Of a stretch of 64,000 nt of DNA, positions 8,601 through 64,000 are shown in pieces. The position numbers were made by a program, and so were the translations under genes. The stretch lies in the IMG/VR virus record IMGVR_UViG_3300049489_000400, positions 34,718 to 98,717 of that record. The stretch is one strand, 5' to 3'. The notes beneath the pieces were generated by a model. That model was given only the letters and a program-made list of their open reading frames with translations. It was not told where the DNA came from and made no database searches. How positions within the stretch are numbered: the first letter of the stretch is position 1; every line of letters starts with the position of its first letter. This DNA is from a virus.

Positions 8601-9203
8601 TATTTCATTTTTTACAAATAGCTTTATATCGAATAAAGAATGGTGTTCATCATCCTGATTATATTCGTAAGCTACTGATATTGTTTCTCCAAGGATAGAT
8701 TTTACACCCTTCTTTTTACAAGCTAATTGAAAAGGTAAAGTTGCAGCTAATGTATTTTTATCAGACAGACCTAAAATCTTCTGACCTAAGAAAACTGTTT
8801 TAGCTACCCACTGTTCTGGTTCTGCTGAGCCGTTTAATAACTCGTATCCAGTATGGACTCCTAAGTGGATAAAATCTATTTCCAAATCTGAATCGTACGA
8901 ACCAACATTTATGAATTCTTTGAACTCTGGGATAAAAATATCTTCATTGTATTCATCCTTCTTTGTCTTTTTAGAAGAATAATAGAACTTGTCTCCCCAC
9001 TTAAATAATATGTGAGTAATATCTTCCTCATAGATTCTGTAGAACTCTTCTTCAGTAAGAATGAAGGAAAAATCATTCGATATGACCTTTCCTTCTTTCT
9101 CTTCTACAAAAACTAATTTCCCAAGTCCTTCTATTTCTACAATATTCCCTTCAATATTGCATTTTATAGATTTTTGTTCAATCCAGTTTTTTAATTCTTT
9201 CAT
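5604..9203 (-). CDS. dnaE: DNA polymerase III alpha subunit (family C)
   Basis: PHP domain HLGVHT, GPGRGSAGGSLVAY, LLFERFLN, catalytic PDIDIDF, K.DILG, YQEQIM, YGFNRSHAAAY. Confidence 0.97.
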   Translation of the reverse strand: MKELKNWIEQKSIKCNIEGNIVEIEGLGKLVFVEEKEGKVISNDFSFILTEEEFYRIYEEDITHILFKWGDKFYYSSKKTKKDEYNEDIFIPEFKEFINVGSYDSDLEIDFIHLGVHTGYELLNGSAEPEQWVAKTVFLGQKILGLSDKNTLAATLPFQLACKKKGVKSILGETISVAYEYNQDDEHHSLFDIKLFVKNEIGWKNLLRIGKFINVDNDKFVSEEDFLNHSEGLICVIPTDSYFNSNIKNDIGRKMIKKYKKIFKGDLYYQIDSVEFDDDSVDIQNLRNIRYYMDNYSDVLKPVLINDSYYIEKSDYKIKSVLNKVDKKTQLSSSDQYYKTIDETLDKLMPHFSKNPDKFDLILESVSNTVEIAEKCDYMIDTGNHKLPKFEHPDSESLYHELLEKGFQRKVIDKFPDDEDKIIQYYERLEEENSVIVGAGFVDYFLILWDIVEWCKTKDILVGPGRGSAGGSLVAYLLGIIEIDPIQYNLLFERFLNKTRVSGERAKSADALPDIDIDFEGLRRGDVKRYIEEKYTYNNVCSIGTYARMKVKSALKDFSRVSGVSFQDANFATKEIPDVIGKSSWGDIFENAVEKPVLKKFVQNNAEVCDLVRISINQPKTSSIHASAVLIVPKQDKSGNPMTIYDWMPVKKIDDQLVSEWEGKFIDAAGFLKADILGIAQLDKFRNTLDLIKKNRGKKVNLNKIKIDIPSVMEFFKNGWNEDVFQFGTSGLKTYSKQVKPDGVEDLISMNALFRPGPMDSNAHKDFAEIKHGKKKPVYDPFLKEVTKNTFGLYVYQEQIMQAMVVAGGLSLAESDQVRTYMKKFDKENLNLFKSRFVEYYNNLLGGDKEEDAVKIWDKMNAFSSYGFNRSHAAAYALMGYWCQYLKVKYPLEFWTASLNFANYEEEVPNRISEIRKIGSDIQIKPPCVNKSDLFFVGFPDDNSIYWSLTKIKNVGDVAARVILNERNQNGDFSDLEDFINRVPKNKVNKRVVKALIIAGAFDNIGGQYGLKIDEEKVRKSLLEFHANLTKSEPYPEVLNENSNSNWYWVTEQKALTGFGDINFLSLLQKYEKKSKIKNLVKNYVSAEEYDKKSYKELKSPKEATIVGRIMYIKHLKYKQSKLPYARVSIESNNVVMILTVWNDCYERVLEKMEKLEAKKSLIAVNCEINYQKEYGKSLNSISERRGSTRNRTEFLVIN

Positions 9204-10393
9204 TACATTTTTCCAATTGGAGAAGTCAAATTAACAGAAACTATCTCTTTGTCTTTAACCTTAGAAGCAAAGAAATTAACAGCTAATGCTATTATATCTA
9301 ACGATGGGTAAAAGTTAGAAAGATTAGATATTTTGTCAATCGTTTTCCACTTGTCTGAGTCAGTTCTCGAAGTCGATTTGTATTCTACATACATCATCAA
9401 AAGATCATAAACCAAATGAAGATATTTTGAGAAATGCATCAATGTTTGCTCTTCTGTTTCTGTTATTCTTTTTCCAGACTTTATTGAGTCTATGATCATG
9501 CTAAGGAAATAATCTACCTCTGCTAATCTAGGTTCAATTGATTCTGAATCGAAATTCATATCCATTCTTGCTGGAACAAATACATCGTACAAATCTTCAA
9601 ACTGACCATTACTCAACTGAACCTCATCATACATTTTCCAAGCAATAGGATTATCATTATATATATGAAGACTTTGAGAATTGTGAGTTTGAGTGCCTAA
9701 CTCAATACCTAAAATGTTAGCCATAATTTCAGTCAAGAAACTGAATTGGAAAACATTAGTGGGTAAACCCCAATGTAAATCATTACTTCTGTTAGAAATA
9801 GTCGTTCTCAATTTTCCATTTCTGATTTTCAAGAATACCATATCGTTACAAGGCAAATCCTTAGATTTAGTTCCTAAGTCCAAATCTGCATTCCAAATCT
9901 GCATAACTGCTCTTCTGGTTTCAGAATCTTTATGAAGGTCTTTTAGGGTCTGAAGAATCTGATCAACACCTTTATTCATTTGCTCTACTGCGTGACCATT
10001 ATTCTCTGGTGAGGTAGGTAAAGTCCTATCGAAAGAGGAAACACCATGTTTTCTCAGTCTAAACCCATATGGAGCATGGAAATTAACCCCATCGTCAGAA
10101 TAATTCTTCATATTAGAATTGAAGATATCAAGAAATGCTACATCTTTCTCTCCTTTGAAAATCCAAATAGCTTCAGCAAGAAGGAAAAATATGTTTATAT
10201 CTCTACCATTGTTTCCTACACAACGTCTGTACGGATTAGTGATTGTTGTCTTGAAGTCTATAATTTCTTTAGTATCCCCATTTCTGCTCTCTACAGAATC
10301 TCCATTCTCAATAACGTACTTGTTTATGAAAGGATAAGTTGAAGAGAAATTACTTGTCACAACAGAATCATTAATAATATTTTTCAAAGTCAT
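9203..10393 (-). CDS. thymidylate synthase-family protein, probable dUMP hydroxymethylase
   Basis: SRNG.TKE, YGFRL, TRRAVMQIW, catalytic DLPCN, RSNDLHWGLPTN (Asn indicates dUMP specificity), SLHIY; C-terminal extension. Confidence 0.85.
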   Translation of the reverse strand: MTLKNIINDSVVTSNFSSTYPFINKYVIENGDSVESRNGDTKEIIDFKTTITNPYRRCVGNNGRDINIFFLLAEAIWIFKGEKDVAFLDIFNSNMKNYSDDGVNFHAPYGFRLRKHGVSSFDRTLPTSPENNGHAVEQMNKGVDQILQTLKDLHKDSETRRAVMQIWNADLDLGTKSKDLPCNDMVFLKIRNGKLRTTISNRSNDLHWGLPTNVFQFSFLTEIMANILGIELGTQTHNSQSLHIYNDNPIAWKMYDEVQLSNGQFEDLYDVFVPARMDMNFDSESIEPRLAEVDYFLSMIIDSIKSGKRITETEEQTLMHFSKYLHLVYDLLMMYVEYKSTSRTDSDKWKTIDKISNLSNFYPSLDIIALAVNFFASKVKDKEIVSVNLTSPIGKM

Positions 10394-42046: not shown

Positions 42047-43534
42047 TTAAGCACGTCCGATGTTGATGAAACGAACCATTTTCTTAGGTGCGTACAAGAA
42101 CGGTGTTCCGTACAATAAGATCATGAATCGGTACGCTGGACTCAACAACGCTAAATCCATTTTCATAAGTGGAGCAAGTTGAGCGAATTCAATCACTTCA
42201 TTGTCCATTTGGAAAAGGATAGCTTGATCCATATCAGGCATCATTCGGTTACGGTCACGAACCGCTCCAGCAGCAGCACCATCATATCCAGCTGTAAACT
42301 CTTGTGCAGACACAGTGAATACAGGATAGAAAGTAGCAGCAGCGAAAGAAGCAGCACCTGGATTAGAACGGTAAACTACATAAGAAGTAGCTGGTGTAGA
42401 ACCACCACCGTCAGTAAATGCTAAGTCGATAGCACCTCCAGCAACTACAGCCGCAGCAGCAGCACCGATTTGAACCAAAGTAGATTCACCATATCGGTTT
42501 ACAGAAGCAACAGCGTAGTAGTAAGTACCAGCATCAGTAGCAGCCCACTTAGAAGATGCATCAACAGCAACAGGAGTCAATGAAACAGAAACAACTGGTG
42601 CAGGTGCATTCGGTGATGTAGCTGGTGATACACTAGTACGACTAGGTTTTTTGTTGAAGAAAATATCCCAGTTCAATCCGATACGTCCAAATTGAGAATC
42701 GAATGATTGAACTCGTTGACCCATAATACCGTCAGAAGTTTGAGCAGTATTAGGTTGGATAAATTTGTTTCCGTAGAAACCTTTAACGAAGTCACTCAAT
42801 ACACGTGGTGGAGCGTACAATTGAGTACCTACACCAAAGTTTTGAATAATTCCGTTTGCCCCATCTTCGATAGCTTCTTCAGTCAAAGCAGAACCTCTAA
42901 GGTCAACTACAACTTCTGAGTTAAAGTAAGCATCCAAGTTGATCCAAGCATCATTTCGTTGATGCTGAGCAAGGAATCCGTTAAACTCTTGTGAAACCAA
43001 AGCCTCATCACCGAAATACAAAGAACGGTTCAATTGACGTAGAATCCACATCGTACCATTCTTAATCTCTCGCTCCATGATACTTCCGATGTGAGTGTTA
43101 ACCAATGTCATCGGGTGAGACACAGATTTAACAACCCCCATGAATTTCACTAACTGAGCACGTCTTACGTAAGTACTGTCCTCTTCATTCGGCAACTCTC
43201 CTTCATTGTAGAAACCTCCACGAAGCGCACCATAAGATGTCAACTGGTTGTATTCTTCAACGGTGTTGAATGCAGATTTTTTAGGCAAGTTCTTCCATAG
43301 AACGATTTCTGTTTCTTTGAAAGTCAAGTGTTTCAAAGTCTTATCAAGACTCTCAACTTTCAATGGAGCACCTCCAGCAGTCGTCAAATTGGCTGTTTCT
43401 CTACCAGTAATTTGACCTGCCTCAAGTGCTTTTTGCAACTGGTTCAATTCTTCACTAGAACTGCTACCAATCAAATTCGGCTGGCCATTATTGGCAGCAG
43501 CATTTGCGTAATCAGCTAAATTTAGTCCTTCCAT
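42047..43534 (-). CDS. major capsid protein (Herelleviridae-like HK97 fold)
   Basis: GAPLKVESLD..LK.LTF, TVEEYN, LYFGD, EFNG, VVDLRG, LAPLMKMDLA, LYG.P.LYAPKK. Confidence 0.93.
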   Translation of the reverse strand: MEGLNLADYANAAANNGQPNLIGSSSSEELNQLQKALEAGQITGRETANLTTAGGAPLKVESLDKTLKHLTFKETEIVLWKNLPKKSAFNTVEEYNQLTSYGALRGGFYNEGELPNEEDSTYVRRAQLVKFMGVVKSVSHPMTLVNTHIGSIMEREIKNGTMWILRQLNRSLYFGDEALVSQEFNGFLAQHQRNDAWINLDAYFNSEVVVDLRGSALTEEAIEDGANGIIQNFGVGTQLYAPPRVLSDFVKGFYGNKFIQPNTAQTSDGIMGQRVQSFDSQFGRIGLNWDIFFNKKPSRTSVSPATSPNAPAPVVSVSLTPVAVDASSKWAATDAGTYYYAVASVNRYGESTLVQIGAAAAAVVAGGAIDLAFTDGGGSTPATSYVVYRSNPGAASFAAATFYPVFTVSAQEFTAGYDGAAAGAVRDRNRMMPDMDQAILFQMDNEVIEFAQLAPLMKMDLALLSPAYRFMILLYGTPFLYAPKKMVRFINIGRA

Positions 43535-43585: not shown

Positions 43586-43595
43586 TAATATCTGT
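43586..43595 (-). promoter_or_regulatory. putative late promoter ACAGATATTA upstream of MCP
   Basis: The same CAGNTATTA motif recurs 19-52 nt upstream of eight other structural-region genes. Confidence 0.55.
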
Positions 43596-45091
43596 TAGTC
43601 GACAATACTGATTTGTTTTTCCAATTTTAATCTGTGGATAACATTAATCGGTAATTGTTTCGTTGCTTCGAATGATGTAACAGCATCCCCAAATTCTGCA
43701 TCATAACCCTTCTCAAATGAAGCATTATCGATGATATTCAAGATTTTTGCAGCATCTTTAGATTTGCTCAATACCATAGTTCCGTCATTTGACTTTCTCT
43801 GACCATCTTCACCGAAATTACGCTCAGTAAAGCCTTTAGTGATAGATTTGCGTCCTTGAGTGGAACCTGCCATCTGTTCGATAGTTTCTTGAGCCTTACT
43901 CAATAGTCCTTTAGTCTCAGCTAATTCCTCTTGAGTAGATTTCAATAATCCTCCTTGCTCTTCAATCTTGCCTTTTAGAATTTCTGTCTGTTCCATTTGA
44001 GCTTTAATCAAAGTAGCTAATGCTTTAGATTCTTTAGATTGTTTTTCTACTGAATCATTGATAGCCTTAACAAGTGAATTTTCCTTTTTACCCTTTTCGA
44101 TTTTTGAAGGTGTTGCACCAGTAGCTGGAGAAGCATTGTTTGTAGACAAATCTTTTTTCATTTCGTCCTCATCTTCCTCATCTTCATTTTCTTCGTCCTC
44201 ATCCTCTTCAGGGTCTTCATCTTTTGATCCGAATTGTTGCTTTGTGACATTCTCTGCGATTTCTTCTGCAGACATTTCAGAAACATCTTTGGATTTTTTA
44301 GCCTTTTCGATAAACGGATTATCTTTAAGGTCTAAACCAAGAACATCGATTGCCTTTTCAATATCGGCATCTGTAATCGTTTTACCTATCATTTTCTCTT
44401 GTATTTGAGTGAATAAATTATTTAACTTATCAGCCTTTTCAATACTAATACCTGGATAAGTGTCAAATATTTTGTCGTATCTCTCGTTAGAATCCATCTT
44501 TTTGATTTTGTAACCACCTCTATCAACAGATTCTTTCTTCAAGGCTGAACCGCTTTCTGTAGTCAAAGATTTCTCTTCTTCATCATCTACTAGAACACGT
44601 CCTTTAATAATATCGGCAAATGTTTGAGCATTTTTAGGCATATGAGTTATAGCTAACCCAGTGATGATAGCTTTCTTAACTATCTTAGGATTTTCTTCAT
44701 CTCTTTCAACTACTGTTCCTTCAATTGAATATCCTAAACGTCTTGTTTTAGAATCCAAAGCCATAACTTGAGCAACCTCATATACTTCCTGAGCTAACTT
44801 GGAATTAGGATAAAGATCAGTTTCAACATAAAATCCGTCTTTTCTTATCTCAGCTTTATGAGGCTCACCTATAATAGCAGCAGGACTGTTTTTAGATTGA
44901 TGATGCCAATTAACAACTCCAGATTTTTTAAATTCTGTAATATCAAATCCAGTTGGGTCTAAGAACTCACCGTCAGAATCTTTATCCATTGTAGATGCGA
45001 TTCCTCCTAATCTCATGATCTCATTACCCTCTTTGTCTTTCGCTTTTTGAATGACACCTACAGGACAGAAAAATTTAAAATTGTTGTTCAT
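43595..45091 (-). CDS. prohead protease with fused scaffold domain
   Basis: GIAST...DSDGE, NWHH, LGYSIEG, AIT..PKN; acidic/coiled-coil C-terminal half. Confidence 0.9.
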   Translation of the reverse strand: MNNNFKFFCPVGVIQKAKDKEGNEIMRLGGIASTMDKDSDGEFLDPTGFDITEFKKSGVVNWHHQSKNSPAAIIGEPHKAEIRKDGFYVETDLYPNSKLAQEVYEVAQVMALDSKTRRLGYSIEGTVVERDEENPKIVKKAIITGLAITHMPKNAQTFADIIKGRVLVDDEEEKSLTTESGSALKKESVDRGGYKIKKMDSNERYDKIFDTYPGISIEKADKLNNLFTQIQEKMIGKTITDADIEKAIDVLGLDLKDNPFIEKAKKSKDVSEMSAEEIAENVTKQQFGSKDEDPEEDEDEENEDEEDEDEMKKDLSTNNASPATGATPSKIEKGKKENSLVKAINDSVEKQSKESKALATLIKAQMEQTEILKGKIEEQGGLLKSTQEELAETKGLLSKAQETIEQMAGSTQGRKSITKGFTERNFGEDGQRKSNDGTMVLSKSKDAAKILNIIDNASFEKGYDAEFGDAVTSFEATKQLPINVIHRLKLEKQISIVD

Positions 45092-45537: not shown

Positions 45538-47814
45538 TTATTTTTTACGAACAAGACACTTACTTCTATTTATAATTACGGCAAAATCTGTATTCCCACC
45601 CCAACCATTCTTTTGAATAATAGCATCATAACCCTTTATTGCAGCATAGAATCCTCTTGCTTCACCACCTGTCCTACTAGCTATATCAGCCATTATCTTA
45701 CTAACACTAGAACTTCCATTTGTTTTAACCTTATTGAGCTCATGTGTTATTTTGTCTAATATGTCTTTGTTTTCTTTGATTTCATTTTTGATATCAATCA
45801 TTTCTTTGCTAGACTTCTTATCAGATGTTATTCTCTCTTTAATTGTGTCGTTTATTTTAGCGAAATGATTTTGAACAAGATGTTCATTCAAATACTTATA
45901 GTGAAGATTGTAAGCTATGTGTTGAGAATTTTTCAATTTCATATCACTTCTTTGCGCTATACCTTCATTCAATATAAATTTCTCAGTAGTATGAGGCAAT
46001 GTTATTTCATAAGTTTGATTGTTTATTTTTTTAACATCTCCTGCTAATTTTTTAACTATTCCTGTGTAATATTCTACAGCTTTGCTAAATTTGTTCTTTT
46101 TCAAGTCAGCTAACTTTTCATAAGAATAATTCCCTGGTAAGCCTTGAACATTATTCAATTCATCGAAAGTGTCTTCATCCCATCCCATTTTCTCTTTAGT
46201 GGTTTGTTCGATTTTCTTTTCGATTTCATCTTGTTTCTTTTCTAAATCGTAAACTGTTTGTTTTGCGTCATCATATTTATTTTTGAGTTCCTTGAATTCA
46301 GAACCAAAAAATTCTTCAGACATCATAGAATCTAATTCGTCTGTATAGATAACCTTTGCATCTGAAGGTATGCATATATCCATAACGCCAGTATCTTTAT
46401 AACCAGCGTATTCGTATGCTATTTGGTAATCGTGATTTGGTGGTGGAGGATTTTTCTTAGGCTTGTTTACAGCGCCATAAATACCTGCACCATACATACC
46501 TACTCTACCATAAAAGCAGTCTTCATTTTCAGTAAAGTCCTTTAGAAGTTCTTGAGCTGTTCTTCCATTGAATCCTTGAACACCTCTATTAACCATAAAT
46601 GCCCCATCTTCAGAAATAGCCTTTTCAAAAGTCTGATCATCTACTTCAGTAGCAACTTTGTCAAAACCTCTTAATTTACAAATATTTGATAAGAAGTTCC
46701 AACCGTGAGTATTATCACTGTTCCACATACCTCCAGCGTCAGACAATGCCTTTTCCATCTCTTTTTCGCTTAATTCTCGGTATGGGTCTTTAGATTCGTC
46801 TAAATCCTCCAATCTGAGTTCTAAACTAGCGAATCTATTATGCATTTTCAAATTCAAATCATCATCCTCAATCATAGACAAAATAATGTCTTTCTTTTTA
46901 AGGATTTTTTTGATTTGTTTATTTATGTCTTTCTGAGTCAGTCCAGAAGTCATTTGTATGTTATTGGAAACCATAGATTCCAATTCATTAACCTCATCTT
47001 CAAAATGATTACCCTTATCTCTACCTTGAGCAGAAAACCTTAAAGAACCGCCATTATCTACACGATAAATTTTACCATCGTCCTTATTGATAAGTATATT
47101 GTCATTCTTGTATGCATCCCAATTAGCCAAAAGACAATCAGCTACGAAATTATTCAATATATCCTTACGAATATCATCTGTAAGATTTGAATTAGCAACC
47201 TCCGTATTAGGCATATACTCAGATAAGATGAGTGATCCAGATTTTGACTTGTAAAGTTTCATATTTGGAACACTTATTCCTAAGCAGGAATATATGGAAT
47301 TAGCAAGATATTCTTCTTCAACATGAGCTGCTGAAGCACCTTTTTTCATTACGTACTCCTTACCAGTATTCTTGTCTTTAACAAGTTGAGCACCAGTAGA
47401 ACCTCCTAAAGATTTAACTATCTCAATATCTGATAGACTCGGAAAATTTTCTGTATCAAAGAAGTCTTCTGGGCTTGCTGATTTACTGGATGAATCTTTC
47501 TTGTCCTTGTTTACAACTTTTCTCCAATCTAGTTTTCCAGAAGGGGTCATCTTAACAACATAAGTTATTCCGTTCTTAACTTTCGTTTGACCTAGTTGTA
47601 ATGCTTTCATTAATTCTTGATCAGGAATTAAACCGTTCAAGGAATCGTGAAAAGTTTTTGATTTGATAATTTCATAATTATCATCTGGAGAAAAGTTGAT
47701 TGCTTTCGAGAAATTATCAAAAGCATTAATCAACGTTTCGTCATCTACCTCTCCTTTGAAATTAGCTACCGCTACAACATTGAGAGACTTTTTCAATCTT
47801 TCAAAATTGTCCAT
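45538..47814 (-). CDS. HipA/PI3K-like protein kinase fused to an ADP-ribosyltransferase-like domain
   Basis: Kinase: LGGSTGA, YVMKK, EYLAN.IY, LLANWD..NDNIL, RVDNGGSL. ART: VNRGV, GMYGAGIY, AYEYA, GYDAI. Confidence 0.7.
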   Translation of the reverse strand: MDNFERLKKSLNVVAVANFKGEVDDETLINAFDNFSKAINFSPDDNYEIIKSKTFHDSLNGLIPDQELMKALQLGQTKVKNGITYVVKMTPSGKLDWRKVVNKDKKDSSSKSASPEDFFDTENFPSLSDIEIVKSLGGSTGAQLVKDKNTGKEYVMKKGASAAHVEEEYLANSIYSCLGISVPNMKLYKSKSGSLILSEYMPNTEVANSNLTDDIRKDILNNFVADCLLANWDAYKNDNILINKDDGKIYRVDNGGSLRFSAQGRDKGNHFEDEVNELESMVSNNIQMTSGLTQKDINKQIKKILKKKDIILSMIEDDDLNLKMHNRFASLELRLEDLDESKDPYRELSEKEMEKALSDAGGMWNSDNTHGWNFLSNICKLRGFDKVATEVDDQTFEKAISEDGAFMVNRGVQGFNGRTAQELLKDFTENEDCFYGRVGMYGAGIYGAVNKPKKNPPPPNHDYQIAYEYAGYKDTGVMDICIPSDAKVIYTDELDSMMSEEFFGSEFKELKNKYDDAKQTVYDLEKKQDEIEKKIEQTTKEKMGWDEDTFDELNNVQGLPGNYSYEKLADLKKNKFSKAVEYYTGIVKKLAGDVKKINNQTYEITLPHTTEKFILNEGIAQRSDMKLKNSQHIAYNLHYKYLNEHLVQNHFAKINDTIKERITSDKKSSKEMIDIKNEIKENKDILDKITHELNKVKTNGSSSVSKIMADIASRTGGEARGFYAAIKGYDAIIQKNGWGGNTDFAVIINRSKCLVRKK

Positions 47815-49259
47815 TATTTAAGCAAATCAAGTGTCTCTAAAGCCTTTTCTAAACTCATTCCAATCTCTGGTTTGATACCTTTCACTATGAATTTTTCAAC
47901 TTCTTTTTCCCAATCTTCTTCGTCACCGAAAAGCATTTTACCCATAACAGGGTCATCTTGAATCATCTTGTTAGCATTATCAATACTTCTCTTAGTTTCG
48001 ATAGCTTCTTTGAATGTTCTAGTGTTGAATTTTTGAGGGTCTATACTGTCAATATTATCGGCAAGTATCTTGAATACAGCATCTCTCTCTTTTATATCCT
48101 CCTGTTTGTCATCCAATCTAGGAACTCCAGTAAAGTTCATTTGATGCTTCAACTTGTCTACAAAATGAAGTTTTTCTCTTTTTGTAAATTGTATATCTTT
48201 TTTGATGGCTCTCGAATAGATTGCATTCATATGTTCATCTTTCGTAAAGTCGTCTTGATTCATGTTTGTAATCAAAAGAATCTGGCCAGTAAACTCAAAA
48301 GGATCAACATTTGAAGCTTTGTTTGTACTTTTCTTACCAACTATCCTTTTACCAGAAGACGCAGTTGCCTTCTTGAACAAACCTCTAATTTCAGGATTCT
48401 TTATAACCATATCCGAATCATCGAATACGATAGTTTTACCATTATGTTCTTGAAGTAATTTTGCAAACTGAGGAACTGAGTCAACTTCTGGAGCCTCAAA
48501 ATAGTCGTAATCGCCATCACCTGGTTGGTCTGTCTCTGGATCAAAAGGTTTTTTACCCATATACTTAGCCACAGCGTGGAAGTTATAAGACTTACCTACC
48601 CCAGCACCTCCAGAAGCAATCATCAATGGAGAACCTCCCTTTAAAAACTGCGCATACGTCTTATTCAAGACAGTAACCTCTTTTTCAGGTGGCTGGTAAT
48701 CAGGGTCATTTATTTTAAGATTATGTATATAATCATCCATTTCAATACGGTCTTTCTTAGTCTTTCCGTTATTGAATTTCTTTTTGATGTTATCTACATC
48801 TTGCCAGTTTTTAGCTTCATCCTCGTCAGAATCTGTATTCTTAGAAGTTGGTGCTGCAGGTGGTTTTTTACCATCTCCATCTCCAAACATTTCTTTTGCT
48901 TGTTTCATTTTTCCTGTATTCAGGTCAATGTCTGAAACATCTTCTCCACGCTCTTTCAACTCGTCATAAGCCATCTGTCTAAGACTTGGATCATTGTTTG
49001 GATTAGTTGCAAATGAAACTAATTTATCATTAGTTGTTTTCTTCAAATGTGCTTGAAGCTTCCCAGCTTTAGTAGTTGGAGTCTGTTCTTCATCGTCACC
49101 TCCTGAATCAGGCTTAGAATCTTTATTTGAAGAACCGGTTGATTTAACCTTTCGCCAGTCAAATTTACCACTAGAAAGTTGAGTCCACACTCTAGTTATA
49201 CCATCTTTACCGACTTTGGTTTCTCCAACCTGTCTAGCCTTCTCAATATTTTTGTTCAT
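47814..49259 (-). CDS. AAA-type ATPase with shared N-terminal module
   Basis: Walker A SGGAGVGKS, Walker B IVFDDSD, ITN sensor, AIYSR arginine finger. Confidence 0.8.
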   Translation of the reverse strand: MNKNIEKARQVGETKVGKDGITRVWTQLSSGKFDWRKVKSTGSSNKDSKPDSGGDDEEQTPTTKAGKLQAHLKKTTNDKLVSFATNPNNDPSLRQMAYDELKERGEDVSDIDLNTGKMKQAKEMFGDGDGKKPPAAPTSKNTDSDEDEAKNWQDVDNIKKKFNNGKTKKDRIEMDDYIHNLKINDPDYQPPEKEVTVLNKTYAQFLKGGSPLMIASGGAGVGKSYNFHAVAKYMGKKPFDPETDQPGDGDYDYFEAPEVDSVPQFAKLLQEHNGKTIVFDDSDMVIKNPEIRGLFKKATASSGKRIVGKKSTNKASNVDPFEFTGQILLITNMNQDDFTKDEHMNAIYSRAIKKDIQFTKREKLHFVDKLKHQMNFTGVPRLDDKQEDIKERDAVFKILADNIDSIDPQKFNTRTFKEAIETKRSIDNANKMIQDDPVMGKMLFGDEEDWEKEVEKFIVKGIKPEIGMSLEKALETLDLLK

Positions 49260-49294: not shown

Positions 49295-49304
49295 TAATAT
49301 CTGT
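49295..49304 (-). promoter_or_regulatory. putative late promoter ACAGATATTA
   Basis: Recurrent motif 36 nt upstream of the ATPase ATG. Confidence 0.5.
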
Positions 49305-50734
49305 TATTCAGTCCAATCTATTGGAAGTTCTACGTTGAAAAATTTAGTCATTACTTCTTCTGAATCTTTCAAAACCTTAGCTGAATTTTTACCCACTTCT
49401 AATTCTTTCAATCTGTTTTTATAGAATGCGATATCAATTACATCTTGCATATTATTTATTGGATCAAATAACATTTTAGCTAATCTGAAATTATGCTTAA
49501 CATCTTTTCTATATTGCTCATCTGACATTTTTTTAGCCTTATTCAAAGCCTCAGCGAATTGTTTAGGTGTTGCATCCCAAGGTATGAATATAGCTTTCAA
49601 TTCATCGTAAATTATGTCATCTATTTTACCCTTTTGTTTAACAAGACCTTTTGTGTCTCTCAAAACTGGATATGAACCGTTTATTATGGCTTCTATGGTG
49701 AAACCATTAAGGTGAGTATTTGAATATTGCGCATAATGTTTACTGAATGATGGGTCAATACAAAATTTAGAATTTTGCTGCATAAAATAAACATCGGAAC
49801 TTGACATGAATCCTTGATGCTCTAATCCGTACATTTCGGCTCTCTCCCAAAGACTCATACCTATATGCTCATCTAAACAATCAGGGTCAGTCTTTTTACT
49901 AACCATATATCTAGGTTTTTGTTTACCTCCTTCAGCGTCAGCCATCATATAATAAAGTTCTATCCCAGAACCAGCTGTAAATACAGTACTGCCCTTTTTC
50001 AAATGAGGAGTCATGGCTAATATGTCTTCCATCTTTTTCATAGATTTGAAAACATGAGCAGCGAAAAAATCAACTGGTCTTTCAGACATAGCCTTATAAG
50101 GTAATTTATCAGGCATATATCTTGAAGCGAAATTCAAGTATCTAGGAATAGCAATATTTTCACAACAATTATAGGCTGATGTATGTACACAGTCTAGGTA
50201 AGTTATTTTAGGTGCTAAATATCTAACCCAGCTTGTTCTAATGTCGTAATATCCGTCATGAACAGCAAAAACTTGTTTTATCCTTTTAGGTAAATCGAAA
50301 AATTTTGGCCAATCATGAAATCCTTTAGCTTCTTTAGTTTTAGTAGGCATAAAACTCCAAAACAATAAATCCGCATCCATTACAGCTTCATGCCATAATT
50401 CTAAAGCATTTTCTGCAAAAACAGGAATACGATTTGTATATGGAGGAAGAAACCAACCATAATAGGAATTTTTCCAGTAACCAGTAACTTCTGATTTCTC
50501 AAAACCTCCGTGTTGACTCTTATTGCTTTGTTTCGCTTGGAATACACCATCTTCAAATTCTTTTATTCTACGATGATATAAATCGACTGATATAGTCTTA
50601 TTATAAGTCAAAAATATAATGTCGACATCATGTCCCATTTCTTTAAAAGCCTTGACACGACCTTCAACATTTTGAACTATACCGCCATACTTTGCGACAT
50701 CAAAAGTACAAATTCTAATCTTTAACTTTTTCAT
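49304..50734 (-). CDS. GT-B fold glycosyltransferase
   Basis: YGGI...GHDVDII N-terminus, K.ME, G.G.E, FTIEAI..G..PV; ATG start at 50734. Confidence 0.8.
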   Translation of the reverse strand: MKKLKIRICTFDVAKYGGIVQNVEGRVKAFKEMGHDVDIIFLTYNKTISVDLYHRRIKEFEDGVFQAKQSNKSQHGGFEKSEVTGYWKNSYYGWFLPPYTNRIPVFAENALELWHEAVMDADLLFWSFMPTKTKEAKGFHDWPKFFDLPKRIKQVFAVHDGYYDIRTSWVRYLAPKITYLDCVHTSAYNCCENIAIPRYLNFASRYMPDKLPYKAMSERPVDFFAAHVFKSMKKMEDILAMTPHLKKGSTVFTAGSGIELYYMMADAEGGKQKPRYMVSKKTDPDCLDEHIGMSLWERAEMYGLEHQGFMSSSDVYFMQQNSKFCIDPSFSKHYAQYSNTHLNGFTIEAIINGSYPVLRDTKGLVKQKGKIDDIIYDELKAIFIPWDATPKQFAEALNKAKKMSDEQYRKDVKHNFRLAKMLFDPINNMQDVIDIAFYKNRLKELEVGKNSAKVLKDSEEVMTKFFNVELPIDWTE

Positions 50735-51401
50735 AATACTCTTCTGGTAACATCTTCTTAATATAACCCTGCTCAAAGAACAATAATGAACTTTGGGATT
50801 TATAGAAGTCCTTTACAAATTGAAATTTATTCGCTCCATCCTCTTCTTTGAGTCCTGTCAATTCATGAACTTGTTTCAACTTGAATTCAGAATTAGTTAA
50901 GCCTACAAAATACTCTTTATTTCTTCTTTTGTATGAATGAGGGAAATCACGGTAGAATAAGTGTGAGTGTTTTTCAGTTAAATTTCTAACTAACCAATGA
51001 AATGGATGACCTACTCCTAAACAAGTTACAATCAAGAATCCATCATCTGACAATACTTCAAGAATCCCATCTAATTCTGAAGCTAGTTTCAGCATTTTAT
51101 TTTCTCCTATTTTCATAAGGCAAAAACTCATAGCTGAATCATCCGACATCAGTTTTTTATCAGAATAGTATTCTTTATGAAAATTTTCAGAACTTACTTT
51201 AGTCCTAAGAGTGAAAAGCTCCATGTCGAACTCTTCGCAAAGTAATCTGTCTTCTTCAAGTCTTTTTTCGTTGTACTCTACGGTCAACATTATAACTTGA
51301 TCATATTTGTCTCTTTCTTTCAAGAAGTTAGCCGCACTAAAGATGATATCATCTGAATGGGGCTGAATCAAAAGCAAATTTCGCTTTTTATTTTTAGCCA
51401 T
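50715..51401 (-). CDS. PIG-L/LmbE-family de-N-acetylase
   Basis: LLIQPHSDD, R..ED, GVGHPFH, FYRDFPHS, YKSQ. Confidence 0.8.
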   Translation of the reverse strand: MAKNKKRNLLLIQPHSDDIIFSAANFLKERDKYDQVIMLTVEYNEKRLEEDRLLCEEFDMELFTLRTKVSSENFHKEYYSDKKLMSDDSAMSFCLMKIGENKMLKLASELDGILEVLSDDGFLIVTCLGVGHPFHWLVRNLTEKHSHLFYRDFPHSYKRRNKEYFVGLTNSEFKLKQVHELTGLKEEDGANKFQFVKDFYKSQSSLLFFEQGYIKKMLPEEYYEKVKD

Positions 51402-51411
51402 ATGAAAAATT

Positions 51412-52314
51412 TTACGGTGTTATAGTAACTTTAACCTTGGAAGTTCTTTTTACTCCTTGAGTATTTCTTTTAATTACAAATCTCTTCAAGTCATCATCCC
51501 ATTCGCTATTTTCAGGAACCACATGAAGTATAGACCTTGCCCAAGGGTGAGCTGGGCCAACAACTGGTTCTTGATCTTTCTTTCCTATGTTATTACCATT
51601 AGCAATCAAGTCCTTTAATTTATATATTATCGGCTTTTCACCTGGAACCCCATAATTTTTTAAACACTGTTTGCAAACTCCTGGGAACGTCTGTTTGTAA
51701 ACTTGAGCGTCATCTCCATAATCTTCAAGTATTTGTTGCGCTCTTCCAAACCCATATGCTTCTTGAAGTATATAATTTGATATCCTGGAAAAATCTCTGG
51801 CCCAGTCTTCAGTAATTCTTTTCAATTCAGATGCTAGCCAAGCTTGACTTTTTCGGTCTTTGAAAGCCTTGATAGATTCTGTTTTGATTTTATCAGCAAT
51901 TTCCAATCTCTGCTTTTGATTAGCCATCAAAATTGTATTAGAAAAATTATTAGCAACTTTGTTTCCTAGACCAGATAAATCAATGAATGCTCTATTTTTT
52001 AAATGGTCTAGTCCAGCCTTTTGAGAAATACTCTTAGGTTGATTTAATCTTTTAGTAAACCATTTGTCGAATATCTTATTGTTTACTTTGTATGACTTAT
52101 TTCCACCTAAAGATTGAGCCATCATTCCGAAATAATAGGACTTGTCTATTTCAGACATAACATCTTCAAAATCTTCTGTATTTATACCTAATGCTTGCAA
52201 CATTATTATGTCTGAAGGAGACAAATACTCTAGTCCTAATTGACTACCGATAAATACAGCTTGATTTCTCTTGATAATGTCTATCATCTGCCATATTTGC
52301 TCCAATGTAAACAT
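51412..52314 (-). CDS. MuF-like minor head (morphogenesis) protein
   Basis: DW.RD..RI, CKQC, P.HPW.RS (variant of HP.CRC). Confidence 0.7.
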   Translation of the reverse strand: MFTLEQIWQMIDIIKRNQAVFIGSQLGLEYLSPSDIIMLQALGINTEDFEDVMSEIDKSYYFGMMAQSLGGNKSYKVNNKIFDKWFTKRLNQPKSISQKAGLDHLKNRAFIDLSGLGNKVANNFSNTILMANQKQRLEIADKIKTESIKAFKDRKSQAWLASELKRITEDWARDFSRISNYILQEAYGFGRAQQILEDYGDDAQVYKQTFPGVCKQCLKNYGVPGEKPIIYKLKDLIANGNNIGKKDQEPVVGPAHPWARSILHVVPENSEWDDDLKRFVIKRNTQGVKRTSKVKVTITP

Positions 52315-62758: not shown

Positions 62759-63772
62759 TCAAGAGTTTGGTTCAAACTTACTTCTCTGTTTGCCTAAACC
62801 TACCTTCATCTTCCAATACTTACTAAACTCACACAACCACATTTCTATCTGATGTAGCGTGAGTTCTCCAGATTTCTTAACTTCGTATCTACTCAAATTT
62901 TTATTCCAATGTAAATACTTAAAATCGCCATATTCCTTTAATTTCTTCTTTGCTATATCAGTTAAAATATGAATAGCATCTTCTTGCTCCTTACCTACTA
63001 ATGCTGGGAATATCAACCTAACTCCTAAACTCGCACCTGGGCCAACATTCGTATAATCGTTCTGATCAAACTTCATAATTTCGATTCCAGAATATCTAGG
63101 AGCATATGTAAAATCTTGATAAAATTCATGAGCAATAAATTGAGCAACGCCTGGTATAGTTCTAAAGAACGAAACTATTTGCTCTGGGTCTTCAGAATTT
63201 AAACACAATTTGTTTATCTTCTTAATGTTAGAATGTATCATAGGAACTGTAACGAAGCAATAACATTCATCCCTAGTTCCTTTTGCGAATGTAGAATTTA
63301 TGTAATAAGCATTCGTAAAAGGGCTTTCACCAGTACTTCTAAATTCTGATACTAAATCAAAAAATTCTTGTTTATCGAATTTGTAATATGAAGGCATTTT
63401 ACCTTTGAAGGATTTAGATTTAACTGAGCCTATAAAATCAAAAAGTTCAGGCTTGTTAAAAATCCTGAACAATAACAGCTTCCATATTATCTCTAATCGG
63501 TCTTTTTCTTTCAATAATACATTTTGTATTTGCCACTGAGAATGTCTGTCTAATTCTCTGTAAACATTCGTGAACTTATTTCTTTGGAAAATTTTATCTT
63601 TAGACCAAGGTTGATTTTCCTTCAATATGAATCTCTTATGCCAGACTTCTTGTCTGTCGAACATAGTCTCAAAGAATAAATCTAAATTTTCCTCACAAAT
63701 GTCTAAATCAGTTGAGGGCAAAAGATGCCCCCAACTCTTCTTATCTAATCTATTTTGCTTTTCGGAACTCAT
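62759..63772 (-). CDS. aGPT-Pplase1 / amino acid:DNA transferase-like DNA base-modification enzyme
   Basis: PWSKDKIF..NKFTNVYRELDR, LFRIFN, FTNAY, NVGPGA..G, IEMWLCEFSKY. Confidence 0.85.
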   Translation of the reverse strand: MSSEKQNRLDKKSWGHLLPSTDLDICEENLDLFFETMFDRQEVWHKRFILKENQPWSKDKIFQRNKFTNVYRELDRHSQWQIQNVLLKEKDRLEIIWKLLLFRIFNKPELFDFIGSVKSKSFKGKMPSYYKFDKQEFFDLVSEFRSTGESPFTNAYYINSTFAKGTRDECYCFVTVPMIHSNIKKINKLCLNSEDPEQIVSFFRTIPGVAQFIAHEFYQDFTYAPRYSGIEIMKFDQNDYTNVGPGASLGVRLIFPALVGKEQEDAIHILTDIAKKKLKEYGDFKYLHWNKNLSRYEVKKSGELTLHQIEMWLCEFSKYWKMKVGLGKQRSKFEPNS

Positions 63773-64000
63773 CAATCAAACTGATTATTTTATTCCTATA
63801 ATTTTTGTCTGATGCATAAACTCTGGAGAGAAAGTCCAAATATTCGTCTTGGTTAGTACAACTTTTAGCAAACTTGGTTTGCCATATTGCGTAGTCTATT
63901 ATACATAATTTCCAATTATCAAAATCAGCATAACCATTCTTACTTCCATTACTTGCAGTCGCTCTTTGTCCTGGATGTTTCATACCAAGAAGGTTATTAT
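63750..64000 (-). CDS. GH73 glucosaminidase, C-terminal part (5' truncated)
   Basis: The frame extends to the window edge as NNLLGMKHP, followed by YA.F..W, DY and YASD..Y motifs. Confidence 0.75.
   Translation of the reverse strand, partial: NNLLGMKHPGQRATASNGSKNGYADFDNWKLCIIDYAIWQTKFAKSCTNQDEYLDFLSRVYASDKNYRNKIISLIDEFRKAK

What the first reader, a model, noticed from the sequence alone, without database searches (positions are those of the whole stretch)
49304..51401. Coupled de-N-acetylase + glycosyltransferase: predicted transfer of a cationic amino sugar
Seen: overlapping PIG-L deacetylase and GT-B genes inside the head module. Known: GT-B + PIG-L pairs transfer GlcNAc and then deacetylate it (MshA/MshB, BshA/BshB, PIG-A/PIG-L). 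Inference: they add a free-amine hexosamine either to hmdU in DNA or to virion proteins; virion glycosylation is known in some actinophages and would fit this gene position.
Basis: partly seen in the sequence, partly recalled or inferred. Interest (0 to 1): 0.75.

Follow-up and report, generated by a model that had tools for sequence, protein, structure and literature searches.

The report
Phage amino-sugar DNA modification gene pair
Two overlapping genes in an uncultured phage, a sugar-adding enzyme and a sugar deacetylase, most likely put an N-acetyl sugar on the hydroxymethyl-uracil that replaces thymine in the phage's own DNA and then remove the acetyl group, which would give a positively charged sugar base not yet described.

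Summary
At 50715-51401(-) there is a divergent PIG-L/LmbE-type deacetylase with an intact metal and catalytic motif set. At 49304-50734(-) there is a divergent GT-B glycosyltransferase. The two overlap by 20 nt and lie between the portal and the protease/capsid genes of a complete 98.7-kb phage genome.

Neither protein reaches a Pfam threshold alone. Family profiles and confident AlphaFold models identify both.

The target is most likely DNA, not virion protein:
- Distant homologues of this GT sit in PF18723(aGPT-Pplase-like)-GT-thymidylate-synthase-like cassettes.
- One homologue is fused to PF18723.
- Others follow a TET/JBP-like dioxygenase.
- In close relatives of this phage, the GT-B in the same slot is replaced by a TAGT domain fused to the PIG-L.
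- All 24 near-complete relatives keep the divergent thymidylate-synthase homologue (23/24), PF18723 (24/24) and exactly one such GT.
- No 5-hmdU DNA kinase was found.

The chemistry (HexNAc transfer to 5-hmdU, then de-N-acetylation) is inferred, not shown.

This scan reached the same reading of the same pair on other genomes (e1-3445391 and others). I rate it a new variant of a known kind, with interest about 0.7.

The parts
50715..51401 (-). PIG-L/LmbE-like metal-dependent de-N-acetylase, 228 aa
   Evidence: ORF. PHSDD (H15, D17, D18) and GHPFH (H132, H135) are invariant in 46 homologues. 31/46 members hit PF02585. The profile hits Dbv21/Orf2* at E=2e-4. The AF2 model has pLDDT 95.3 and matches Orf2* by Foldseek at E=5.7e-9.
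49304..50734 (-). GT-B glycosyltransferase, 476 aa from the ATG at 50734 (longest ORF starts at TTG 50776)
   Evidence: ORF, alignment. PF08323 hits 35/46 members and PF00534 hits 12/46. The AF2 model has pLDDT 92.6. Best fold match is T4 DNA alpha-glucosyltransferase, Z 25.5, tied with TarM at 24.6. 8 of the 30 nearest ESM-Atlas clusters are PF11440 AGT. The sister-clade profile A7 hits it at E=1.6e-88.
50715..50734 (-). 20-nt overlap of the PIG-L stop and the GT start (likely translational coupling)
   Evidence: Read from the sequence. Adjacency is conserved in 74 loci.
62759..63775 (-). PF18723 (HMUDK_hel / aGPT-Pplase clade-1-like) protein, 338 aa; candidate hmdU-DNA-handling partner of the GT
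   Evidence: Pfam E=4.1e-48. 27% identical to the protein annotated 'aGPT-pyrophosphorylase clade 1' in Bacillus phage Nachito. Present in 24/24 relatives. Fused to, or directly upstream of, GT homologues elsewhere. Cys315-Glu316 are invariant.
9203..10393 (-). Divergent thymidylate-synthase-family enzyme, candidate dUMP hydroxymethylase that would supply 5-hmdU
   Evidence: One window ORF hits PF00303 at E=4e-24. tblastn places it here at 37.7% identity to the TS homologue of SP10-like phage Nachito. Present in 23/24 relatives. The outgroup phage MA9V-3 instead has a canonical ThyA at E=7.5e-91.
51412..52314 (-). MuF/SPP1-gp7-like minor head protein (flanking gene, not part of the enzyme pair)
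   Evidence: The consensus carries PGACxxC ... HPYCRCT. 3/21 members hit PF04233 weakly. Some relatives have C-terminal extensions to 484-675 aa.
47814..49259 (-). P-loop ATPase with a disordered N-terminus (flanking gene)
   Evidence: Walker A GGAGVGKSY, Walker B IVFDDSD and LLITN, read from the translation. phrog_1250 at E=4.7e-15. The AAA+-like reading is my own.

Best explanation
The two genes are a DNA-hypermodification unit.

1. The phage makes DNA in which thymine is replaced by 5-hydroxymethyluracil. The supporting genes are a divergent thymidylate-synthase homologue, a dUTPase, a dCTP-deaminase-like protein and a YfbR-like nucleotidase.
2. After replication, the GT-B enzyme transfers an N-acetyl-hexosamine from a nucleotide sugar (probably UDP-GlcNAc) to the 5-hydroxymethyl group in DNA. 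It probably works together with the PF18723 (aGPT-Pplase-like) protein encoded next to the portal region.
3. The PIG-L enzyme then removes the N-acetyl group. This leaves a free-amine (cationic) hexosamine on the base.

Shown here: the folds and intact catalytic motifs of both enzymes, their strict pairing, and the links of both families to DNA hydroxymethyl-pyrimidine machinery by fusion, neighbourhood and displacement.

Inferred: the acceptor (hmdU in DNA), the donor sugar, the order of steps, and any role of PF18723.
For: GT family context:
1. A profile of the family finds a sister clade at about 25-30% identity.
   - In 79 IMG/VR loci of that clade, a TS-like gene follows the GT directly, often with a 4-nt overlap, in 44 of 72 loci with enough flank.
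   - A PF18723 gene lies directly upstream in 29 of 54.
2. P0272 (829 aa) is a natural fusion of this GT (28% identity to the window GT, E=5e-37) with PF18723 (Pfam E=9.7e-86).
   - It occurs in two samples.
   - It lies beside the TS-like, HD-nucleotidase and DnaE genes.
3. In another sister subgroup, a TET/JBP-like dioxygenase lies directly upstream of the GT in 15 of 19 loci. Its profile hits TET2 at E=2e-7 with HxD...H...R aligned. This architecture is documented for phage DNA glycosylation (PMC13229309; bioRxiv 10.1101/2023.12.21.572611).

PIG-L family context:
4. About 20 protein clusters fuse it to a TAGT domain, PF20691.
   - L176-L178 belong to the same phage lineage (MCP 65%, portal 58-62% identity).
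   - They carry PIG-L::TAGT in exactly the slot MuF--AAA-protease-MCP, and have no GT-B.
   - L186 has PIG-L, a TAGT-like gene and PF18723 in one gene string.

Genome level:
5. PF18723 is in 24/24 and the divergent TS in 23/24 near-complete relatives. Each has exactly one GT of this superfamily.
6. The cultured outgroups MA9V-3 and DAC19 lack both PF18723 and the GT.

Fold and active sites:
7. T4 DNA alpha-glucosyltransferase is the top match by Foldseek and VIA-align. DNA alpha-GTs and SP-15 GTs lead the viral library. AGT clusters are the nearest named family in the ESM Atlas.
8. The PIG-L zinc and catalytic motifs are invariant.
Against: - No chemistry was tested. No cultured phage carries either family: tblastn of INPHARED was empty for three GT queries and for the PIG-L.
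- The PIG-L-linked GT clade is a long, separate branch. It has moved from the replication module to the late head module, so a change of acceptor cannot be excluded.
- The fold preference for T4 AGT is within the tie margin. The AGT Pfam model does not hit.
- TAGT is not DNA-only. The human TAGT-domain protein GREB1 is reported to O-GlcNAcylate a protein (PMC7968844).
- The genome-level co-occurrence is lineage-wide, so it is not phylogenetically independent.
- No 5-hmdU DNA kinase was found. The role of PF18723, with its conserved Cys-Glu, is therefore unexplained.
Confidence: 0.62

Rival explanations
1. Virion protein glycosylation. The GT adds HexNAc to capsid or other head proteins late in infection, the PIG-L deacetylates it, and the particle surface or interior carries amino sugars.
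For: The pair lies between the MuF-like head protein and the protease/MCP genes. It is tightly packed with them, and no terminator-like or promoter-like signal exceeds chance. Fold matches include the protein O-GlcNAc transferases SdgB and GtfA. The TAGT-domain protein GREB1 glycosylates a protein (PMC7968844). The clade is a long branch that has left the replication module.
Against: Every informative context of GT homologues is DNA or nucleotide metabolism: TS-like, PF18723, TET/JBP-like dioxygenase and DnaE. The GT is fused to PF18723 in one lineage. This lineage keeps PF18723 and the TS homologue but has no other GT to partner them. PF18723 itself lies in the same late region, so position is weak evidence.
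Confidence: 0.13
2. The GT glycosylates hmdU in DNA, but the PIG-L enzyme does something other than removing the N-acetyl group of that DNA-bound sugar. Examples are hydrolysing another amide in a more complex hypermodification, or acting on a free glycoside or precursor.
For: The LmbE family includes amidases (Mca) and even a hydratase (GalB). The PIG-L is fused in one cluster to a radical SAM/SPASM enzyme, and that enzyme is its upstream neighbour in 23 loci, which hints at more complex chemistry. The sister GT clades work without any PIG-L.
Against: The PIG-L is always paired with a glycosyltransferase, either GT-B or TAGT. That is the pattern of GlcNAc-transfer-then-deacetylate pathways. 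Its closest structures are deacetylases of GlcNAc bound to a bulky aglycone.
Confidence: 0.15
3. A small-molecule or host-envelope pathway: a bacillithiol/mycothiol-like thiol, or modification of a host glycan, carried as an auxiliary metabolic gene pair.
For: BshA, MshA, BshB and MshB appear among the fold matches.
Against: There is no detectable sequence relation to those enzymes. Both families are viral-only in the Atlas and in the searches. No third pathway enzyme is present. The pair is a core gene of a lytic-looking lineage, not a sporadic accessory gene.
Confidence: 0.04

Closest known systems
T4 DNA alpha-glucosyltransferase (AGT; Pfam PF11440) and T-even glucosyl-hydroxymethylcytosine
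   Same: Both are phage GT-B enzymes. AGT is the best structural match (Z 25.5, 343 residues aligned, rmsd 3.7) and the nearest named family in the ESM Atlas. The predicted reaction type is the same: O-glycosylation of a 5-hydroxymethyl-pyrimidine in DNA after replication.
   Different: This GT is not a sequence member of the family. PF11440 does not hit and hhalign gives only 29% probability. The predicted base is hmU, not hmC. The predicted sugar is an N-acetyl-hexosamine, not glucose. T4 has no deacetylase partner, and its gene is early rather than in the head module.
Metagenomic phage 5mYOX (TET/JBP-like) + glycosyltransferase clusters that put hexose, HexNAc or heptose on 5hmC (bioRxiv 10.1101/2023.12.21.572611; PMC13229309)
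   Same: A sister subgroup of this GT family has exactly this architecture, with the dioxygenase directly upstream. HexNAc on a DNA base is an established product in that work.
   Different: The window phage has no dioxygenase. It probably obtains the hydroxymethyl group before replication, through a TS homologue. Neither of the two phage DNA-glycosylation papers I searched for the word uses a deacetylase: one search gave none, and the single occurrence was in a reference title.
Kinase-dependent thymidine hypermodification of M6, ViI, PhiW-14, SP10 and PaMx11 (PMC5889632, PMC8989533)
   Same: A dUMP-hydroxymethylase-like TS, post-replicative modification of 5-hmdU, a PF18723/aGPT-Pplase-type protein with a conserved Cys-Glu, and an end product that carries a primary amine.
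   Different: No P-loop 5-hmdU DNA kinase was found. No PLP enzyme was found either. A glycosyltransferase takes the place next to the aGPT-Pplase-like protein.
SP-15 / YerA41 / Carin-5 oligosaccharide-hypermodified thymidine (PMC12686479)
   Same: Sugars on a thymidine derivative. SP-15 GTs are among the top viral fold matches. The Carin-5 gene block contains glycosyltransferases and a predicted GlcNAc deacetylase.
   Different: The Carin-5 deacetylase is annotated as a polysaccharide deacetylase, not an LmbE/PIG-L enzyme. In those phages the sugars hang on a dihydroxypentyl-phosphate linker. The polymerases and gene blocks are different.
GlcNAc-transfer-then-deacetylate pairs: MshA/MshB, BshA/BshB, PIG-A/PIG-L, and teicoplanin GtfA/Orf2*
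   Same: A glycosyltransferase is coupled to an LmbE-fold zinc deacetylase. The fold matches are to these enzymes, and Orf2*/Dbv21 is the best match for the PIG-L.
   Different: The acceptor is predicted to be DNA, not inositol, malate, a lipid or a glycopeptide. Sequence similarity is at or below detection.
Base J (beta-glucosyl-hydroxymethyluracil) and the TAGT glycosyltransferase family (PF20691)
   Same: A sugar O-linked to 5-hmU in DNA. In close relatives of this phage, a TAGT domain fused to the PIG-L replaces the GT-B.
   Different: The window genome has no TAGT. Base J carries glucose, with no amine and no deacetylase.

Membership tests
PIG-L / LmbE deacetylases (PF02585) | LmbE alpha/beta fold | tested here: met
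   The AF2 model (pLDDT 95.3) matches Orf2*/Dbv21 by Foldseek at E=5.7e-9 to 7.6e-8, TM 0.58-0.63. It also matches diacetylchitobiose deacetylase, BshB and MshB.
PIG-L / LmbE deacetylases (PF02585) | N-terminal (A/P)HxDD metal-binding and catalytic motif | tested here: met
   P14, H15, D17 and D18 are invariant in 46 sequences. The motif aligns to PHLDD of Dbv21.
PIG-L / LmbE deacetylases (PF02585) | Second His motif HxxH (HPDH in MshB and Orf2*) | tested here: met
   G129, H132, P133 and H135 are invariant (GHPFH). The motif aligns to HPDH of Dbv21.
PIG-L / LmbE deacetylases (PF02585) | Score above Pfam's gathering threshold | tested here: not met
   The window protein gives no hit, and 11.6 bits against a 28.2-bit cut-off. 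31/46 homologues hit at E<0.1, best 6e-6. It is a divergent branch of the superfamily.
PIG-L / LmbE deacetylases (PF02585) | De-N-acetylase activity on a GlcNAc glycoside | not testable with these tools
   Needs an enzyme assay.
GT-B glycosyltransferases (GT4-like) | Two Rossmann-like domains with an inter-domain cleft | tested here: met
   The AF2 model (pLDDT 92.6) gives Z 20-25.5 over 300-348 residues to many GT-B enzymes.
GT-B glycosyltransferases (GT4-like) | Pfam Glycos_transf_1 or Glyco_transf_5 match | tested here: inconclusive
   The window protein hits only PF08323 at E=0.02. Among homologues, PF08323 hits 35/46 and PF00534 hits 12/46.
GT-B glycosyltransferases (GT4-like) | Canonical EX7E motif | tested here: not met
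   The second Glu (E348 in ...GFTIEAIINGSYPV) is invariant. The position eight residues upstream is T340. This motif is not required for the GT-B fold.
T4 AGT family (PF11440) | Match to the family HMM | tested here: not met
   There is no match at E<=10 in the whole genome. The same model finds T4 a-gt at E=1e-261. hhalign of A2 against T4 AGT gives 29% probability.
T4 AGT family (PF11440) | Hydroxymethyl-pyrimidine in DNA as acceptor | not testable with these tools
   Supported only by context.
Kinase-dependent thymidine hypermodification (5-HMUDK + aGPT-Pplase/AADT) | P-loop 5-hmdU DNA kinase | tested here: not met
   No kinase family appears in Pfam scans of 94 further ORFs. The Nachito kinase gives no tblastn or blastp hit in the genome or in any locus. 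A very divergent kinase cannot be excluded.
Kinase-dependent thymidine hypermodification (5-HMUDK + aGPT-Pplase/AADT) | aGPT-Pplase-type helical domain | tested here: met
   PF18723 at E=4.1e-48. C315 and E316 are invariant. Conserved Cys and Glu are the active-site residues described for clade 2 (PMC8989533). Equivalence of the positions was not tested.
Kinase-dependent thymidine hypermodification (5-HMUDK + aGPT-Pplase/AADT) | dUMP hydroxymethylase (TS homologue) | tested here: inconclusive
   A divergent PF00303 hit at E=4e-24. It is 37.7% identical to the TS homologue that sits in the hypermodification cluster of SP10-like phage Nachito. The activity was not tested.
TAGT (PF20691) | Match to the family HMM in this genome | tested here: not met
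   No hit in the window's genome. The domain is present as a PIG-L fusion in relatives L176-L178.

The most novel reading that the evidence does not exclude
A kinase-independent route of thymidine hypermodification that is widespread in uncultured phages. A GT-B (or TAGT) glycosyltransferase works with an aGPT-Pplase-like protein directly on 5-hmdU in DNA. In this Bacteroidota-type phage lineage, a dedicated LmbE-fold deacetylase converts the product to 5-(aminohexosyl-oxymethyl)uracil. That would be the first amino-sugar DNA base and the first deacetylase known to act on DNA-bound sugar. Some relatives would carry optional radical-SAM and methyl tailoring.
Probability: 0.5. Interest if true: 0.8.

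Novelty: new variant of a known kind. Interest (0 to 1): 0.7.

Why it matters
Known thymidine hypermodifications add amines by way of a DNA kinase and an amino-acid transferase. Known DNA glycosylations add neutral or N-acetyl sugars. A sugar that is deacetylated on the DNA would join the two themes. It would place a bulky group and a positive charge in the major groove, with consequences for restriction and CRISPR evasion, for DNA packaging, and for sequencing and cloning of such genomes.

It would also give PF18723/aGPT-Pplase clade-1 proteins a role alongside glycosyltransferases rather than kinases. I found no role for clade 1 in PMC8989533: the reconstitutions there used clade-2 enzymes.

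The GT family is large. There are 228 representatives at the 50%-identity cluster level, and all contexts seen are viral. It is not annotated anywhere I could search, so the result would re-annotate hundreds of metagenomic phage genes. The enzymes could also serve as tools for labelling 5-hmU in DNA with a reactive amine.

Tried and rejected
- **Direct scans.** Pfam and PHROGs scans and PDB sequence searches with the two proteins alone found nothing useful. The GT profile against PDB sequences gave no hit.
- **Cultured phages.** INPHARED holds no homologue of the PIG-L or of three GT queries. So no cultured test phage was found.
- **RmlC-like gene.** A dTDP-sugar epimerase in this genome looked like a clue to the donor sugar. 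It is absent from all 24 relatives, so I treat it as an accessory gene.
- **Charge.** The pI and net charge of the two families are not informative.
- **Transcription signals.** The promoter and terminator scan found nothing above chance.
- **Failed queries.** An alignment of 40 sister GTs was too diverse for the search for related loci, and a single fusion protein found no viral locus. Narrower or aligned queries worked.
- **Radical SAM.** I asked whether the radical SAM neighbour resembles enzymes of cultured phages. There was only one weak hit, in an unannotated record.
- **Upstream ORF in sister cassettes.** I asked whether the ORF upstream of PF18723 in the sister cassettes is the missing kinase. 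It has no Walker A motif and no similarity to the Nachito kinase.
- **Paper not held.** The Iyer et al. 2013 paper that defined TAGT and aGPT-Pplase was not held under the id I tried. I cite it only through PMC6163654 and PMC8989533.
Full report
**What is there.**

The window is the right-hand 64 kb of a complete 98,717-bp virus record. All 127 ORFs lie on the minus strand.

- The finding covers two ORFs: 50715-51401 (228 aa) and 49304-50776.
- The second ORF most likely starts at the in-frame ATG at 50734 (476 aa, MKKLKIRICTFDV...), where all homologues begin.
- That start gives a 20-nt overlap with the stop of the first ORF.
- The gene order runs: PF18723 protein (62759-63775), two unknown genes, portal (59021-60616), several unknown genes, an NlpC/P60-like protein, a MuF-like head protein (51412-52314), the pair, a P-loop ATPase (47814-49259), a 758-aa protein, protease (43595-45091), and major capsid protein (42047-43534).
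- So 'inside the head module' is correct.

**Identity of the two proteins.**

Neither protein reaches any Pfam or PHROG model alone.

PIG-L:
- 192 metagenomic homologues exist.
- In an alignment of 46, the invariant residues are P14-H15-x-D17-D18, E42, R47, E50-D51, G129-x-x-H132-P133-x-H135 and YRDFPHSYK.
- 31 of the 46 hit PF02585.
- The family profile finds the LmbE-fold deacetylases Dbv21 and Orf2* at E=2e-4. PHSDD aligns on PHLDD, and GHPFH aligns on HPDH.
- The AlphaFold model (pLDDT 95.3) matches these structures at Foldseek E=5.7e-9. It then matches diacetylchitobiose deacetylase, BshB and MshB.
- From established knowledge of MshB and Orf2*, these are the zinc ligands and the catalytic Asp and His. 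The enzyme therefore looks active.

GT:
- 283 homologues exist.
- 35 of 46 hit PF08323 and 12 of 46 hit PF00534.
- The model (pLDDT 92.6) is a GT-B.

**What the GT fold resembles most.**

- Foldseek against the PDB puts T4 DNA alpha-glucosyltransferase first (E=1.4e-11).
- VIA-align also puts it first (Z 25.5, 343 residues, rmsd 3.7), but TarM at Z 24.6 is within the tie margin.
- In the viral model library, the first hits outside the family itself are DNA alpha-glucosyltransferases and the glycosyltransferases of phage SP-15, whose thymidine carries sugars.
- By language-model features, 8 of the 30 nearest ESM-Atlas clusters are PF11440 AGT clusters.
- The AGT HMM does not hit the genome, and hhalign against T4 AGT gives only 29%.
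- The protein resembles AGT but is not a member of that family. On its own this is a lean, not a proof.

**The pair in its own lineage.**

- 78 IMG/VR loci carry the GT. All are syntenic: [PF18723]-portal-...-MuF-PIG-L-GT-ATPase-...-protease-MCP.
- The PIG-L HMM finds a partner in 74 of them. The rest are cut at the GT.
- In 24 near-complete relatives, PF18723 is present in 24/24 and the divergent TS homologue in 23/24. There is exactly one GT of this superfamily per genome.
- The nearest cultured phages by capsid are Chryseobacterium phage MA9V-3 (41%) and Bacteroides phage DAC19 (48%). Both lack PF18723 and the GT. MA9V-3 has a canonical ThyA instead.
- This co-occurrence is lineage-wide and therefore weak by itself.

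**Evidence that the genome makes hmdU DNA.**

- The TS homologue is 37.7% identical to the one in SP10-like phage Nachito.
- The PF18723 protein is 27% identical to Nachito's 'aGPT-pyrophosphorylase clade 1'.
- In Nachito, both lie beside a P-loop nucleotide kinase.
- The genome also has a dUTPase, a dCTP-deaminase-like protein and a YfbR-like 5'-deoxynucleotidase.
- I found no P-loop 5-hmdU DNA kinase.

**Independent lineages: the decisive part for the GT.**

A profile search of 1.84 billion representatives found 228 proteins. These include a large sister clade at 25-30% identity. Its contexts fall into three groups:

1. P0272, an 829-aa protein found in two samples, is this GT fused to PF18723 (Pfam E=9.7e-86).
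   - It lies in the replication module, directly before the TS homologue, an HD nucleotidase and DnaE.
   - That complete 108-kb genome has no PIG-L.
2. In 79 sister loci, the TS homologue follows the GT directly, often overlapping by 4 nt, in 44 of 72 loci with enough flank.
   - PF18723 precedes the GT in 29 of 54.
   - None has a PIG-L.
   - None has a homologue of the Nachito kinase.
3. In a further subgroup without TS or PF18723, a conserved 440-490-aa protein lies directly upstream of the GT in 15 of 19 loci.
   - Its profile hits TET2 at E=2e-7, with the HxD, distal His and Arg aligned.
   - A TET/JBP-like dioxygenase next to a glycosyltransferase is a published phage DNA-glycosylation architecture (PMC13229309; bioRxiv 10.1101/2023.12.21.572611).

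In most informative sister-clade contexts, then, the GT family sits next to an enzyme that makes a 5-hydroxymethyl-pyrimidine, or next to the PF18723 domain of thymidine hypermodification. Seven unique GT sequences had no labelled neighbour.

A quick tree puts the PIG-L-linked GTs in one well-supported, long-branched clade beside all the others. The careful search did not finish, and the root is only at the midpoint.

**Independent evidence for the PIG-L.**

- A search for longer proteins found about 20 clusters in which this PIG-L family (38% identity, E=2e-39) is fused to a TAGT domain, PF20691. It also found one cluster fused to a radical SAM/SPASM enzyme.
- TAGT is the TET/JBP-associated glycosyltransferase family, said to glycosylate pyrimidines in DNA (PMC6163654, citing Iyer et al. 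2013).
- Loci L176-L178 belong to the same phage lineage as the window (MCP 65%, portal 58-62% identity).
  - They carry PIG-L::TAGT in exactly the same slot, MuF-[ ]-ATPase-758-aa protein-protease-MCP.
  - No GT-B is found in the loci or in the 89.6-kb contig.
  - This is a non-orthologous replacement of the GT partner. It shows that 'PIG-L plus a glycosyltransferase' is the functional unit.
- In L186, a stand-alone PIG-L, a TAGT-like gene and PF18723 lie in one gene string before the portal.
- Caveat: the human TAGT protein GREB1 is reported to O-GlcNAcylate a protein (PMC7968844). TAGT is therefore not proof of a DNA acceptor. It does show that the family can use UDP-GlcNAc.

**Accessory genes.**

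In relatives, the block between MuF and the GT also takes up:
- a radical SAM/SPASM gene (23 loci);
- GIY-YIG homing endonucleases (16);
- an N6/N4 DNA methylase (2);
- an FkbM methyltransferase (2);
- a PF18823 pyrophosphatase (2).

By sequence motif, a radical SAM gene and FkbM-type methyltransferase genes also lie next to the GT in sister cassettes. This looks like combinatorial tailoring of one modification.

The RmlC-like gene of this genome is unique to it.

**Mechanism and what remains open.**

- The most likely sequence is: hmdU DNA, then GT with UDP-HexNAc gives HexNAc-O-CH2-U, then PIG-L gives HexN-O-CH2-U.
- The N-acetyl donor is inferred only from the obligate deacetylase partner.
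- The role of PF18723 is open. It could be a base-flipping helper, or it could do chemistry through its invariant Cys315-Glu316.
- The long branch and the move to the late head module leave room for a change of acceptor, so I keep the virion-glycosylation rival at about 0.13.

**Literature.**

- HexNAc on 5hmC is known.
- A glycosyltransferase block with a predicted polysaccharide deacetylase is proposed for the T-hypermodified phage Carin-5.
- I found no paper that links an LmbE/PIG-L enzyme to DNA modification.

**Earlier notes of this scan.**

Other notes describe the same pair, and the same reading, on other genomes. I treated them as leads only.

**Tools.**

Noticed in passing
outside the window: G000:C1:28276-28821 (locus L083:10276-10821, minus strand): An RmlC-like dTDP-4-dehydrorhamnose 3,5-epimerase (PF00908, E=3.5e-55) lies among the early genes. 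It is absent from all 24 near-complete relatives, so it is an accessory gene of this genome only.
   Followed up: yes
relatives, e.g. L037:8389-9357, L021:8349-9314, L153:6922-8004; protein P0393: A radical SAM/SPASM enzyme is inserted between the MuF-like gene and the PIG-L in 23 related loci. It is fused to the PIG-L in one protein cluster. A CxxxCxxC ORF also lies directly upstream of the sister-clade GT in L153. It is probably a further tailoring step of the same modification.
   Followed up: partly
L088/L089:9977-12490 (protein P0272): A natural fusion of the GT family with the PF18723 aGPT-Pplase-like domain, next to the TS homologue and DnaE, in a complete 108-kb phage genome that has no PIG-L.
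   Followed up: yes
L104:6568-8001, L118:5800-7119 and 13 further loci: A TET/JBP-like Fe/2OG dioxygenase (HRD...H...R; profile against TET2 E=2e-7) lies directly upstream of sister-clade GTs in phages that lack the TS homologue and PF18723.
   Followed up: partly
window 51412-52314 and relatives L011, L028, L038, L042, L047, L056, L058, L073: The MuF-like head protein is 300-313 aa in most genomes but 484-675 aa in some relatives. This is the pattern of MuF proteins that carry variable C-terminal cargo domains.
   Followed up: no
relatives L033:9312-10004, L041:9243-10004, L001:2548-3189 and others (16 loci): GIY-YIG homing-endonuclease genes are inserted either between the PIG-L and the GT or just upstream of the PIG-L. 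Where they fall between the two genes, they break the overlap of the pair without removing either gene.
   Followed up: partly
relatives L024:2199-2960, L028:9297-10004; L006:2497-3567; L061:4237-4809: An N6/N4 DNA methylase, an FkbM-type methyltransferase and a PF18823 'inorganic pyrophosphatase' occur as occasional inserts in the same block.
   Followed up: no
window 60651-62369: No ORF of the genome matched a terminase large-subunit model in Pfam or PHROGs. The 572-aa protein between PF18723 and the portal is the positional candidate but has no family hit.
   Followed up: no
window 62759-63775: The PF18723 protein has an invariant Cys315-Glu316 (WLCEF) across 13 homologues, yet the genome has no recognisable 5-hmdU DNA kinase to make the phosphorylated substrate that aGPT-Pplase-type enzymes use elsewhere.
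   Followed up: partly
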